A stretch of DNA of 52,067 nucleotides, from NCBI GenBank assembly GCA_030680695.1, contig JAUXUT010000149.1, positions 302,933 through 354,999 on the forward strand, read 5' to 3'. The notes under the pieces are model-generated. The model saw only the letters and a list, made by a program, of their open reading frames with translations. It made no database searches and was not told where the DNA came from. Below, piece by piece: positions 10,036 to 12,248 of the stretch (positions are counted from its first letter, which is position 1; each line of letters opens with the position of its first letter). A program made the position numbers and the translations under genes. Origin of the DNA: a bacterium. Lineage in GTDB: Bacteria; Patescibacteriota; Minisyncoccia; Phycocordibacterales; UBA6065.

Positions 10036-10710
10036 CTACCCTAAGTCTAATAATGCCGCACGTTCAAGAACGAGCTTAACCGACGGAGCACGGTCTTTGA
10101 GATATGCCGACAGACCCACGATTTCTTTCACAGCATGGGCTCGCACCGGTCCGGCTTTTTCGAGGCTATCGCCGCGCAGTTCTGTAATAAGCGAGGCGAG
10201 GAAACCTTCGGCTTTGGCTTTGTCCTTCTCTTCTATAATGCCAGCCACTGCCGCAAGACGATCCTTTGGCGACATCTTTACGAAAGCTTTCGCGTCTATG
10301 CTGAGCGCCGCGTCACCCGTCAATCCCGCCGATTCATGCGCAATGATGACCATGCGAGATCGCAGAGTTGGCAAAAGGATGCGCCGCGTCGGGGCGATGA
10401 CAAAAAAATGCGTGCCAGTGGTCGGCTCTTCAAAAACTTTTAGAAGCGAATTCTGCGCCTCGTTGGTAATCGCACCCGTAGAAACTATGAATACCTTGCG
10501 ATCGCCCATGACCGGACGCATGGATTGCATGTCTTGCAGGGCGCGTCCTTCGTCAATGCCGAATGACTCGTATATCGCATAATGCACGTCCGGATGTCCG
10601 GCACGCACAATACCAAGTCCTTCTGACAAGAATGCATCAAGCGAAGCGAGCACGGCTTCCCGCTCGCCTTCGATGAAATATGCGTGATGGAGGGCCTTCG
10701 GATCAAACAT
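10036..10710 (-). CDS. holB: DNA polymerase III delta-prime-like subunit (probable start MFDPKALHHAY at 10710)
   Basis: HHAY, AQNSLLKVFEEP, ILLPTLRSR clamp-loader motifs; extended -10 TGcTATACT 6 nt before the ATG. Confidence 0.85.
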   Translation of the reverse strand: MFDPKALHHAYFIEGEREAVLASLDAFLSEGLGIVRAGHPDVHYAIYESFGIDEGRALQDMQSMRPVMGDRKVFIVSTGAITNEAQNSLLKVFEEPTTGTHFFVIAPTRRILLPTLRSRMVIIAHESAGLTGDAALSIDAKAFVKMSPKDRLAAVAGIIEEKDKAKAEGFLASLITELRGDSLEKAGPVRAHAVKEIVGLSAYLKDRAPSVKLVLERAALLDLG

Positions 10711-10725
10711 GTGTTGAGTATAGCA

Positions 10726-10938
10726 AAATAAAAGGCCACATCTGGAAGATGCAGCCTCAGGAGCTACGGTGCGCCATTTTGTTGGATGTCGGCTTGCGCC
10801 AACACGGGCGACATATGTAAATCGTTGCTGGATCCCGAATCTGAGCGATCGATCCCCGAGAAAACCCGTTTCGCCGACAAGGTGTCGAACGCTGAAGAAC
10901 TCCCGTATTGAGATTACTCTGCGTTCACATCTTGTCAA
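10726..10938 (-). ncRNA. Candidate structured ncRNA (RNA2, ~150 nt) with own promoter and terminator
   Basis: TTGACA(10938-33)-16 nt-TAATCT(10916-11); ends pair (CGGGAGUU 10905-898 / AGCUCCUG 10765-58); GCAA-capped hairpin; terminator 10735-10755 plus T tract. Confidence 0.6.
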
Positions 10939-10977
10939 ACACCCTCCTTATCATTTATCCAAGCTCGTCATTTCCAT

Positions 10978-11234
10978 AAAAAAGGCGCGATCCGTAGATC
11001 GCGCCATTCGGCACCCCTTGCGGGGCACCTAACACCTCGAGTAACGTCCCTGGACGTAGCTACTCGATTTTTTCCGAATCTGTATTACCGCAAGCGCCGC
11101 GCCTGGCTTGACGTCTAAGCGTAGCAGGGAGGGTGTACCAGACTGAGGTTGAGCTGCCCGAAGGCTAGCGACTAACCGGGGACAAAGACCGAAGTGCTGG
11201 TATTGGATATTACTCAGTGCCCAATATTTGTCAA
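10978..11234 (-). ncRNA. Candidate 6S-like RNA (RNA1, ~170-nt rod) with promoter, GNRA hairpin and terminator
   Basis: TTGACA(11234-29)-16 nt-TAATAT(11212-07); ~26-bp interrupted closing stem, central bubble, inner stem; terminator GGCGCGATC-TACG-GATCGCGCC-T6. Confidence 0.6.
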
Positions 11235-12248
11235 CTACCTCTTGGACATGATCGTCTTCTTGTAGACGTCGAGATGATCAAGGGCGATGCCGGTTCCCTT
11301 GGCAACGCAGTAAAGAGGATCTTCGGCGAGAATTGCCTTTACACCCGTGCGGCGGAATACAAGTTCTGGAAGATTGCGGAGCATGGATGATCCGCCGGTC
11401 ATAATGATACCGTGGTCGATGATGTCTGATGCAAGTTCAGGCGGAGTTTCCTGAAGTACGTCTTTGATGGCCTTAATCATGTCACGCAATTCCTTGCCGA
11501 TAGCCTTCACAACTTCGTTGGTCTTGATTTCGGTCGAGCGTGGCAGACCAGACAAAAAGTCGCGGCCTTTAATAATCATGACAAGCTCTTCTTCGAGGGG
11601 CACAGCCGAACCAATCTGTATTTTTATATCTTCTGCAGTCTTGTCACCAATGGCGAGATTAAAAGTTTTCTTGATGTAATCAGCGATCGCCGCATCAATG
11701 CGATTGCCCGCGCATTTTACGGATGTTGATGCGACAATGCCTCCAAGAGAAATCACAGCGACGTCGGTCGTTCCTCCACCGATGTCAACGACCATGTGTC
11801 CTTGCGCCTCTTGAATCGGAATTCCTGCGCCGATGGCGGCGAGAATCGGCTCCTTCACGACATATGCGGACTTGGCACCTGCCTTCACAGCCGCCTCGAC
11901 AACGGCGCGACGTTCAGTCGATGTGATGCCTGCAGGAACAGACACGAGGACTTCAGGCTTCCAGATGTTCCACTTGCCCAAGGCCTTGTCTATGAAATAT
12001 CTGAGCATCGCTTCGGTCACGCGGTAATCCGCGATAACGCCGTCCTTCATCGGTCGATACGCAATAATCGATTCCGGCGTACGGCCGATCATCTGTTTTG
12101 CCTCGACGCCTACGGCGAGAACCCTGTTGTCCTGTTCGGATACGGCTACAACCGACGGCTCGTTTAAGATAATCCCCTTGCCAGGAATAAACACGAGCGT
12201 ATTAGCCGTGCCGAGGTCTATACCGAGTTTTTTCGCGAATAAGGCCAT
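11235..12248 (-). CDS. mreB: Second MreB-family actin homolog (stand-alone)
   Basis: LGIDLGTANT, RPMKDGVIADY, MVVDIGGGTTD, GIIMTGGSS. Confidence 0.95.
   Translation of the reverse strand: MALFAKKLGIDLGTANTLVFIPGKGIILNEPSVVAVSEQDNRVLAVGVEAKQMIGRTPESIIAYRPMKDGVIADYRVTEAMLRYFIDKALGKWNIWKPEVLVSVPAGITSTERRAVVEAAVKAGAKSAYVVKEPILAAIGAGIPIQEAQGHMVVDIGGGTTDVAVISLGGIVASTSVKCAGNRIDAAIADYIKKTFNLAIGDKTAEDIKIQIGSAVPLEEELVMIIKGRDFLSGLPRSTEIKTNEVVKAIGKELRDMIKAIKDVLQETPPELASDIIDHGIIMTGGSSMLRNLPELVFRRTGVKAILAEDPLYCVAKGTGIALDHLDVYKKTIMSKR

What the first reader, a model, noticed from the sequence alone, without database searches (positions are those of the whole stretch)
10978..11234. 6S-like rod RNA tandem to RNA2 (RNA1)
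Seen on the - strand: AGCACUUCGG/UCGAGGUGUU, GUCCCCGG/CCAGGGAC and UAGUCGCU/AGUAGCUA form a long closing stem, followed by a central bubble with small hairpins on both sides and an inner stem. A GCAA hairpin with tandem G-U pairs confirms the strand, and a perfect terminator follows. Known: this is the 6S RNA architecture. Two identically built promoter-RNA-terminator units side by side form an ncRNA island between mreB2 and holB.
Basis: partly seen in the sequence, partly recalled or inferred. Interest (0 to 1): 0.65.

Follow-up and report, generated by a model that had tools for sequence, protein, structure and literature searches.

The report
Rare structured RNA gene after mreB
Between the mreB and holB genes of an uncultured groundwater Paceibacteria (CPR) bacterium lies a real, evolutionarily selected gene for a folded RNA of about 220 bases that is shared with only two other species; it resembles 6S RNA only in outline, and its function is unknown.

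Summary

Thermodynamic support is weak: z = -0.4 for the core and -2.1 with the 3' hairpins. Comparative support is good. Two other species of the genus (G013, G021) carry a homologous RNA in the same mreB-holB spacer. Synonymous sites between these species are near saturation. The three RNAs share a UUCG/CUCG-capped hairpin, a 5-bp helix, an invariant 4x4 internal loop (GUAC/AAUA) and a 3-bp helix. All 33 base-pair cells pair, and four pairs show compensatory changes. The closing stem adds two more.

The 6S reading is not established. No Rfam model matches. The family occurs in 3 of about 40 genus-level loci. A conserved hairpin fills the 5' bubble strand that 6S RNA keeps open as a template. 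However, Rfam also fails to find SRP RNA in this order, so the negative model result is weak evidence.

The spacer repeatedly holds different promoter-RNA-terminator units behind a positionally conserved promoter. No RNA-seq data exist.

Verdict: a new, narrow structured-sRNA family of unknown function.

The parts
11207..11234 (-). RNA1 promoter: -35 TTGACA (11234-11229), 16-nt spacer, -10 TAATAT (11212-11207). It starts at the base after the mreB stop codon (11237-11235).
   Evidence: 10 of 12 matches. It is paralogous to the RNA2 promoter and this type is unique in the genome. A promoter-like site at the same position recurs in relatives.
10978..11200 (-). Predicted RNA1 primary transcript, about 220 nt. 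The start is inferred 7 nt after the -10 element; the end is the terminator U-tract.
   Evidence: No ORF of 20 aa or more on this strand in 11040-11200. No RNA-seq available.
11189..11198 (-). P1 5' strand, AGCACUUCGG.
   Evidence: MFE fold. Eight aligned pairs with the G013 copy: six identical, two changed on both sides, none broken.
11031..11040 (-). P1 3' strand, UCGAGGUGUU.
11166..11184 (-). 5' strands of P2 (UGUCCC.GG) and P3 (GU.GCUA). Predicted only.
   Evidence: Not supported by the homologues.
11045..11062 (-). 3' strands of P3 (UAGC.AC) and P2 (CC.GGGACG). Predicted only.
11156..11165 (-). H1 hairpin GCC-UUCG-GGC. It can extend to 11169-11153, which competes with P3.
   Evidence: Alignment A3. 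Three pairs, 100% paired, with one compensatory and one wobble change.
11139..11144 (-). P5 5' strand, AGUCUG.
11135..11138 (-). Invariant internal-loop strand GUAC.
   Evidence: Identical in all three species.
11132..11134 (-). P6 5' strand, ACC.
   Evidence: All three pairs vary between species and all stay paired (two change on both sides, one on one side).
11090..11131 (-). Variable distal hairpin of the inner arm.
   Evidence: Not alignable between species, but each copy folds as a hairpin.
11087..11089 (-). P6 3' strand, GGU.
11083..11086 (-). Invariant internal-loop strand AAUA.
11077..11082 (-). P5 3' strand, CAGAUU.
11063..11076 (-).
   Evidence: Not conserved in sequence across the homologues.
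11010..11029 (-). GCAA-capped hairpin GGUGCCCC-GCAA-GGGGUGCC with tandem U-G/G-U pairs. It shares CCCGCAAGGGG with the terminator hairpin of the G013 copy.
10978..11005 (-). Intrinsic terminator: 9-bp stem with 7 G-C pairs, UACG loop, U6.
10725..10938 (-). Neighbouring RNA2 unit: promoter TTGACA (10938-10933), 16-nt spacer, TAATCT (10916-10911); ORF-less body; terminator at 10758-10732. Its body is not significantly similar to RNA1.
10708..10722 (-). holB's own -10 element TATACT (10722-10717), six bases before the ATG (10710-10708). This indicates a leaderless holB mRNA that does not depend on the RNA units.
   Evidence: TATACT is conserved at the same place in 9 of the 10 unit-bearing spacers analysed (sequences).

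Best explanation
RNA1 is an independently transcribed, structured non-coding RNA of about 220 nt. It belongs to an uncatalogued and very narrowly distributed family: this genome plus two other species of the same Paceibacteria genus, always in the mreB-holB spacer.

Shown:
- A strong sigma-70-type promoter directly after the mreB stop, no ORF, and an intrinsic terminator.
- A conserved core made of the 5'/3' closing stem P1, a UUCG-capped hairpin H1, a short linker, and an arm. In the arm, helices P5 and P6 (both supported by compensatory changes) flank an invariant 4x4 internal loop (GUAC opposite AAUA) and lead to a variable distal hairpin.

Inferred:
- The invariant loop, held between covarying helices, is a specific docking site for a partner, most likely a protein but possibly another RNA or a tertiary contact.
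- The closing stem and 3' hairpins mainly protect the ends.
- The RNA therefore probably acts in trans as a small, dispensable regulatory or sequestering RNA, not as a housekeeping RNA.

The slot it occupies carries a positionally conserved promoter behind which different RNA bodies are found in different species. RNA1 is thus one of several alternative 'cassettes'.
For: - Promoter, terminator and lack of ORF.
- Homologues only in G013 and G021, at the same locus: the motif was seen, and model R1 scored 83-87 bits for the three source copies (which match by construction), with nothing else credible in 29 genus and family genomes or in 127 further loci.
- Structure: 11 pairs in H1, P5 and P6 are 100% paired, with 4 pairs changed on both sides. 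Slid controls give at most 1 such pair and 12-39% paired. P1 has 2 further compensatory changes and none broken.
- Selection: four-fold degenerate sites of the adjacent mreB are only 27-38% identical among the three species. The spacers are otherwise unalignable, yet 14 loop and helix bases are invariant.
- Strand specificity: there are 7-13 G-U pairs per fold, and the sense strand is 7-22 kcal/mol more stable than the antisense strand.
- Dispensability and cassette slot: the closest relatives (HolB 77-78% identical) have a 36-nt spacer or a different RNA. Ten of 26 genus and family spacers hold a promoter, 130-260 ORF-less nt, and a terminator.
Against: - There is no expression data of any kind.
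- Only three sequences exist, so the covariation statistics are thin, and I hand-picked the helices after seeing the motif.
- Core folding energy is not better than shuffled sequence (z = -0.43).
- No partner has been identified. The trans-acting, partner-binding mechanism is pure inference.
- P2, P3 and the junction are not consistently foldable across the three homologues.
Confidence: 0.6

Rival explanations
1. RNA1 is a divergent 6S-type RNA. Under this reading the closing stem, open centre and apical arm mimic an open promoter, the RNA sequesters sigma-70 RNA polymerase holoenzyme, and it is released by pRNA synthesis.
For: - Size and outline fit: about 25 interrupted base pairs of closing stem, a 20-nt/14-nt central region, and an apical arm of about 20 bp. 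This matches the definition in PMC8876501.
- No recognisable 6S RNA exists in this genome or in 61 relatives, so the niche is unfilled.
- Rfam models perform poorly in this order, since SRP RNA is also undetected. A negative model result is therefore weak evidence.
- The 3' junction strands of the G021 and G013 copies contain UACAAU and UACAUU, which resemble a -10 element.
- Ms1 shows that 6S-like RNAs can escape sequence models (PMC9130861).
Against: - No RF00013 match even at E<=10 on 651 nt.
- The 5' bubble strand next to the closing stem, where the pRNA template and start site lie in 6S RNAs, is occupied by a conserved, covarying UUCG hairpin.
- The own copy lacks a -10-like hexamer in the 3' strand.
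- The rod is not conserved: the G013 copy has a ~65-nt extra branch.
- The family is present in 3 of about 40 loci and absent from the nearest relatives, unlike a global transcription regulator.
- The most conserved element is an internal loop inside the apical arm, which has no 6S counterpart that I know of.
Confidence: 0.1
2. RNA1 is a cis-acting leader (riboswitch- or attenuator-like). Under this reading the upstream promoter drives a sensor domain whose fold decides whether transcription stops at the terminator or reads through into holB (and, in this genome, RNA2).
For: - The architecture resembles an aptamer: P1 closes a junction that carries a hairpin and an arm with an invariant internal loop, followed directly by a terminator.
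- In G013 the sequence GUCUCCC occurs both in the 3' strand of the closing stem and in the 5' strand of the terminator. This would allow an alternative pairing (by eye).
Against: - holB has its own conserved -10 element, TATACT, six bases before its ATG. It is therefore leaderless and independent of the unit.
- No conserved antiterminator alternative exists in the own copy or in G021.
- In this genome a second hairpin, a separate terminator and a whole second unit lie between RNA1 and holB.
- Riboswitch cores are normally widely conserved, whereas this one is in 3 species.
- No Rfam riboswitch matches.
Confidence: 0.12
3. RNA1 has no function of its own. Under this reading it is a transcribed spacer or a decaying remnant (for example of a duplicated or mobile sequence), and its fold is incidental.
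For: - Core stability is no better than shuffled sequence.
- Distribution is patchy, and the slot holds many unrelated bodies or none.
- The RNA is clearly dispensable in the genus.
Against: - Synonymous sites are near saturation between the three carriers. Even so, a 14-base loop-and-helix core is invariant, and every change in the flanking helices keeps the pair.
- The G-U pairs make the fold strand-specific, so it is not a DNA palindrome.
- There is a single copy per genome, so it is not a repeat.
Confidence: 0.1
4. RNA1 is a trans-antisense regulator of dnaJ mRNA. Under this reading the two strands of its conserved P5/loop/P6 region pair with two sites in dnaJ.
For: The own dnaJ (C134:235135-236031, + strand) contains AGGGUGUACCA and GAAUCUGUAUU. 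These are exact 11-mer complements of RNA1 positions around GUAC and AAUA, 331 nt apart. Given the way I searched, the chance of this is roughly 1e-3.
Against: The same dnaJ sites in G021 (GGUGUUCCG, GAAUCAAUUUUC) and G013 (GGCGCGCCG, GAAUCUAUAUUC) do not match their own RNA copies. No other complement of 10 nt or more exists there. The candidate seeds are also base-paired inside the RNA.
Confidence: 0.03

Closest known systems
6S RNA (Rfam RF00013; E. coli SsrS, B. subtilis 6S-1/6S-2)
   Same: About 200 nt and ORF-less. The 5' and 3' ends form a long interrupted closing stem, the centre is less structured, and there is an apical arm (definition in PMC8876501). Two units in tandem recall the 6S-1/6S-2 pair.
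   Different: - No covariance-model match.
- A conserved hairpin sits in the 5' bubble strand, where 6S RNA is open and templates pRNA.
- No conserved -10-like 3' strand.
- The rod is not conserved among homologues.
- The family is in 3 species only.
- Its best-conserved feature is a 4x4 internal loop in the apical arm.
- RNA polymerase binding is untested.
Ms1 RNA of Actinobacteria (6S-like, binds RNA polymerase core; PMC4191392, PMC9130861)
   Same: A 6S-like fold that sequence and covariance models of 6S do not detect. It was recognised through synteny, not sequence.
   Different: Ms1 is conserved across most Actinobacteria at a syntenic locus and is highly expressed. RNA1 is confined to three species, and nothing is known about its expression or binding.
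Lineage-restricted intergenic sRNA genes with their own sigma-70 promoter and Rho-independent terminator
   Same: Own promoter, own terminator, no ORF, narrow phylogenetic range, dispensable.
   Different: RNA1 is longer and far more structured than typical base-pairing sRNAs. Its conserved part is a helix-embedded internal loop, not a single-stranded seed. CPR bacteria are not known to use Hfq-type sRNA regulation (my own knowledge).
Variable 'cassette' loci flanked by conserved genes (for example surface-glycan or hsdS swap sites)
   Same: The flanks are conserved (mreB end plus promoter; terminator plus holB promoter), while the inserts are alternative and unrelated. The same insert type recurs in species that are not nearest relatives.
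   Different: Here the cassettes are non-coding RNAs of 130-260 nt. No recombination machinery or repeats are evident, and very fast divergence instead of swapping is not excluded.

Membership tests
6S RNA (RF00013) | Match to the family covariance model at or above the gathering score (46.4 bits). | tested here: not met
   No match at gathering on the window, none at E<=10 on 10650-11300, and none in the whole genome at E<=10. Caveat: Rfam also misses SRP RNA in this order.
6S RNA (RF00013) | Rod: closing stem and apical stem flanking a central bubble, conserved across homologues. | tested here: inconclusive
   Present in the MFE of the own copy. The G013 copy has an extra ~65-nt branch, and the G021 fold with P1 is 4 kcal/mol above its MFE.
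6S RNA (RF00013) | Open, unstructured 5' central-bubble strand that serves as the pRNA template next to the closing stem (PMC8876501). | tested here: not met
   This position holds hairpin H1 (GCC-UUCG-GGC), conserved with a compensatory change in all three species.
6S RNA (RF00013) | A -10-like element in the 3' central-bubble strand. | tested here: inconclusive
   UACAAU (G021) and UACAUU (G013) lie just 3' of the inner arm. The own copy reads CGGAAAAAAUCGAG, with no such hexamer.
6S RNA (RF00013) | Binds sigma-70 holoenzyme and templates pRNA. | not testable with these tools
6S RNA (RF00013) | Broadly conserved within a lineage as a housekeeping regulator. | tested here: not met
   Model R1 finds it in 3 of 29 genus and family genomes and in none of 127 further loci. 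It is absent from the closest relatives.
SRP RNA (RF00169 / RF01854) | Covariance-model match and the domain IV motif (UCAGG ... GNAR ... AGCAG). | tested here: not met
   No match on the spacer or in the genome. The motif is absent from RNA1 (pattern scan). The distribution in 3 species is incompatible with a universal RNA.
Any other Rfam 15 family (including Ms1, riboswitches, Y RNA, OLE, raiA) | Consistent covariance-model match in the three homologues. | tested here: not met
   Only scattered chance hits on terminator hairpins. No family is shared by the three loci.
Riboswitch / transcription attenuator | Conserved mutually exclusive terminator and antiterminator pairing that controls a downstream gene lacking its own promoter. 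| tested here: not met
   holB keeps its own -10 TATACT six bases before the ATG in the unit-bearing spacers. An alternative pairing is seen by eye only in G013, not in the own or G021 copies.
Stand-alone structured sRNA gene | Own promoter, own intrinsic terminator, no ORF. | tested here: met
Stand-alone structured sRNA gene | Structure maintained by compensatory change in diverged species. | tested here: met
   with near-saturated synonymous sites as the yardstick. Only three sequences are available.
Stand-alone structured sRNA gene | A discrete transcript is detected. | not testable with these tools
   Only the source DNA metagenome holds the sequence.

The most novel reading that the evidence does not exclude
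The mreB-holB spacer of this Paceibacteria genus may be a dedicated 'RNA cassette slot'. A positionally conserved promoter directly after mreB, and a conserved terminator/holB-promoter junction, frame alternative, unrelated, highly structured RNAs whose 5' and 3' ends pair. These RNAs would be exchanged or replaced between species. The RNA1 type recurs in three species that are not each other's nearest relatives, and the G021 copy looks chimeric. Within this picture, RNA1-type RNAs could be the CPR functional counterpart of 6S/Ms1-type RNA-polymerase-binding RNAs, which are otherwise undetectable in the order.
Probability: 0.12. Interest if true: 0.7.

Novelty: new member of a known kind. Interest (0 to 1): 0.36.

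Why it matters
CPR/Patescibacteria have tiny genomes and almost no described regulatory RNAs. Standard RNA models perform poorly on them: here neither 6S nor SRP RNA is detected in dozens of genomes. A structured RNA with clear covariation, an invariant internal loop and a defined promoter and terminator is a concrete, testable entry point into RNA-based regulation in these uncultured bacteria.

The same spacer holds different RNAs behind a conserved promoter in different species. This hints at fast turnover or exchange of RNA genes, which would be of wider interest for how new non-coding RNAs arise.

As it stands, though, this is one more orphan sRNA family with three members and no known function.

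Tried and rejected
- **Rfam, all 4227 families.** Searched on the window, on the spacer, and on both homologous spacers. Nothing consistent.
- **RF00013 (6S).** No match in the own genome or in 61 relatives.
- **BLAST of the spacer.** No homologues in 61 relatives. All-against-all BLAST of spacers found only L011~L014.
- **Exact motif CTGGTAC-N(35-65)-AATACAG in 301 genomes of the order.** Hits were at about chance level: 45 genomes hit, roughly twice the reversed-pattern control, most looking like coding sequence (not checked individually), and none with flanking complementarity.
- **Model R1.** Searched 29 genus and family genomes and 127 further loci. The only extra hit, G017 at E = 0.004, lies inside a 523-aa ORF and lacks the motif, so it is a false positive.
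- **More relatives.** One metagenome scan, one genome scan, two protein searches and nine contig look-ups gave no new RNA1-type copy.
- **RNA-seq evidence.** None is available.
- **dnaJ antisense-target idea.** Two 11-mer complements exist in the own genome, but they are not conserved in G013 or G021. Rejected.
- **rRNA-site mimicry.** No second copy of the loop with complementary flanks exists anywhere in the genome.
- **RNA1 and RNA2 as duplicates.** The promoters are paralogous. The bodies are not significantly similar: 24 of 300 shuffles scored as high.
- **A motif shared by all ten spacer RNAs.** Only the holB -10 element and the terminator U-tracts are shared.
- **Unifying the own, G013 and G021 copies with the G015 and G008 units.** Their 5' and 3' ends look alike by eye, and MAFFT aligns them weakly. 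I could not establish homology.
- **SRP RNA identity for RNA1 or RNA2.** Rejected: no model hit and no domain IV motif.

Full report
**What is there**

On the - strand the mreB gene ends at 11235. The very next base starts TTGACA, followed by a 16-nt spacer and TAATAT (11234-11207; 10 of 12 consensus matches). About 7 nt further on, an ORF-less stretch begins (no ORF of 20 aa or more on this strand between 11040 and 11200). It ends in a GCAA-capped hairpin (11029-11010) and a strong intrinsic terminator (11005-10984 plus U6).

- P1, AGCACUUCGG/UCGAGGUGUU.
- P2, UGUCCC.GG/CC.GGGACG.
- A small GCC-UUCG-GGC hairpin.
- An inner arm.
- An A-rich 3' strand.

A second unit of the same build follows at 10938-10725, and then holB. 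Stability alone is unimpressive: z = -2.13 with the 3' hairpins and -0.43 for the core.

**Organism and context**

The window is G000:C134 of a 1.24-Mb, 93%-complete genome. Relatives are small (0.4-1.5 Mb) and their records are titled Candidatus Paceibacterota, Taylorbacteria or Parcubacteria. The mreB-then-holB order is conserved across the order. holB carries its own -10 element, TGnTATACT, six bases before its ATG in the unit-bearing spacers. It is therefore leaderless and independent of whatever lies upstream.

**Homologues**

BLAST found nothing. Reading the syntenic spacers showed that G013 (L015) and G021 (L016) share CUGGUAC ... AAUACAG with RNA1.

MAFFT alignments anchored on these motifs (A2 and A3) give a common core:
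- Hairpin H1 with a UUCG or CUCG loop.
- A linker of 8-12 nt.
- P5, 5 bp.
- An invariant 4x4 internal loop, GUAC opposite AAUA.
- P6, 3 bp.
- A variable distal hairpin.

On this structure all 33 cells pair. Four of 11 pairs change on both sides, whereas slid controls give at most one such pair and only 12-39% pairing. All three P6 pairs differ between species and all stay paired.

P1 is also shared with G013: of eight aligned pairs, six are identical, two are compensatory, and none is broken. The own GCAA hairpin shares CCCGCAAGGGG with the G013 terminator.

Four-fold degenerate sites of the adjacent mreB are only 27-38% identical among the three carriers. Even the closest relatives I could find reach no more than 46-49%. 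Neutral sequence is thus essentially randomised, and the conserved core must be under selection. The fold is strand-specific: there are 7-13 G-U pairs, and the sense strand is 7-22 kcal/mol more stable than the antisense strand.

P2, P3 and the junction are not consistently foldable. G013 has an extra branch of about 65 nt, and the G021 fold that includes P1 is 4 kcal/mol above its MFE.

**Distribution**

I built covariance model R1 from the core. The three source loci score 83-87 bits (they match by construction). It finds nothing else credible in 29 genus and family genomes. The G017 hit (E = 0.004) lies inside a 523-aa ORF and lacks the motif. R1 also finds nothing in 127 further loci from metagenomes, GTDB genomes and Logan/JGI contigs.

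The exact motif in 301 genomes of the order occurs at about chance level. The genome has one copy only.

The closest relatives I could find (HolB 77-79% identical) differ at this site:
- L176 has a 36-nt spacer.
- L177 has a different RNA.
- L178 has too little upstream sequence on its contig to tell.

G007, whose HolB is 85% identical to that of G013, has a similar promoter but a different RNA body. RNA1 is therefore a rare, dispensable element with a patchy distribution.

**The slot**

Of 26 genus and family spacers, 10 have the following arrangement:
- A promoter-like site within 40 nt of the mreB stop.
- 130-260 ORF-less nucleotides.
- A terminator about 25 nt before holB.

L177 and L182 add two more. 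In most of the units folded, the 5' and 3' ends are predicted to pair, and five (L035, L022, L011u2, L014, L011u1) fold well below shuffled controls (z -2.7 to -5.1). Their bodies share nothing detectable apart from L011~L014 and the RNA1 trio. The outer part of the G021 copy resembles L011/L014 by eye, which suggests a chimera, but I could not prove this.

In this genome the RNA1 and RNA2 promoters are paralogues: no shuffle out of 1000 reached the observed similarity, and this promoter type is unique in the genome. The two bodies are not significantly alike.

**Is it 6S?**

Against:
- No RF00013 match at any threshold.
- A conserved, covarying hairpin sits exactly where 6S RNAs keep an open 5' bubble strand that templates pRNA (definition in PMC8876501).
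- No conserved -10-like 3' strand. It is present in G013 and G021 but absent here.
- The rod is not conserved.
- Three carriers among about 40 loci.

For:
- The outline of this copy fits.
- No 6S RNA is detectable in 61 relatives.
- Rfam models are clearly insensitive here, because bacterial SRP RNA is not found in this genome or, above cut-off, in 37 relatives.
- Ms1 shows that 6S-like RNAs can escape sequence models (PMC9130861).

I put the 6S-like function at about 10%.

**Other readings tested**

*Antisense regulation of dnaJ.* The own dnaJ holds two exact 11-mer complements of the conserved strands. The G013 and G021 dnaJ genes do not match their own RNAs, so this is a coincidence.

*Leader or attenuator of holB.* This is unlikely because holB has its own conserved leaderless promoter and no conserved antiterminator exists.

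*Neutral spacer.* The covariation contradicts this.

**Conclusion**

RNA1 is a real, selected, structured sRNA gene of a new three-member family. Its best-conserved element is a helix-embedded 4x4 loop, which probably docks a partner. The 6S label is a resemblance, not a membership. No expression data exist, and function remains inferred.

Noticed in passing
whole genome G000 and relatives G001-G042; G003:C1:198079-198179 (L175 1501-1601): Neither bacterial SRP RNA model (RF00169, RF01854) finds anything in this 93%-complete genome. RF00169 finds no hit above cut-off in 37 relatives. The only hit is a 20.5-bit full-length match in G003 carrying UCAGG..GGCA..AGCAG. SRP RNA in this order is either very divergent or missing, and Rfam negatives here carry little weight.
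   Followed up: partly
window 10725-11234 and syntenic spacers in L005, L010, L011, L014, L015, L016, L022, L035, L036, L177, L182: The mreB-holB spacer repeatedly holds a promoter directly after the mreB stop, an ORF-less structured RNA of 130-260 nt whose ends pair, and a terminator abutting the holB promoter. The RNA bodies are mostly unrelated between species, even between species whose HolB is 85% identical (G013 versus G007).
   Followed up: partly
window 10708-10722 (-) and the same position in relatives: holB has a conserved extended -10 element (TGnTATACT) six bases before its ATG. This implies a leaderless mRNA.
   Followed up: partly
window 10711-10938 (-): The holB reading frame stays open upstream through the whole RNA2 unit to a TTG at 10938 (300 aa versus 224 aa). 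The same kind of N-terminal over-extension was called in a relative (P0004, 248 aa, L177). Gene callers can therefore swallow these RNA units.
   Followed up: no
G000:C134:235135-236031 (+), outside the window: The own DnaJ (299 aa) and those of G008, G015 and G021 lack the Cys-rich zinc-finger domain. G013 and G005 keep it (369-370 aa).
   Followed up: no
L013 (G009) spacer, 137 nt: The whole mreB-holB spacer is one giant hairpin with a perfect 22-bp terminal stem (AAAGAAAAGCGAAAUAGGUGUU / AACACCUAUUUCGCUUUUCUUU) and no promoter. It looks like a bidirectional terminator or a miniature inverted-repeat element.
   Followed up: no
L181 671-1477, L021, L183 1111-1467, L184 866-1201: In some relatives protein genes sit in the same slot. 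One is a prepilin-like N_methyl + Laminin_G_3 protein of 268 aa; others are small ORFs of 111-118 aa without Pfam hits.
   Followed up: no
L016 (G021) spacer, first 40 nt after mreB: This copy has a strong hairpin, GAGAGGCCGGUUCGCGAAGCGAACCGGCCUCUC, between the mreB stop and the RNA promoter. mreB therefore has its own terminator here, unlike in the window.
   Followed up: no
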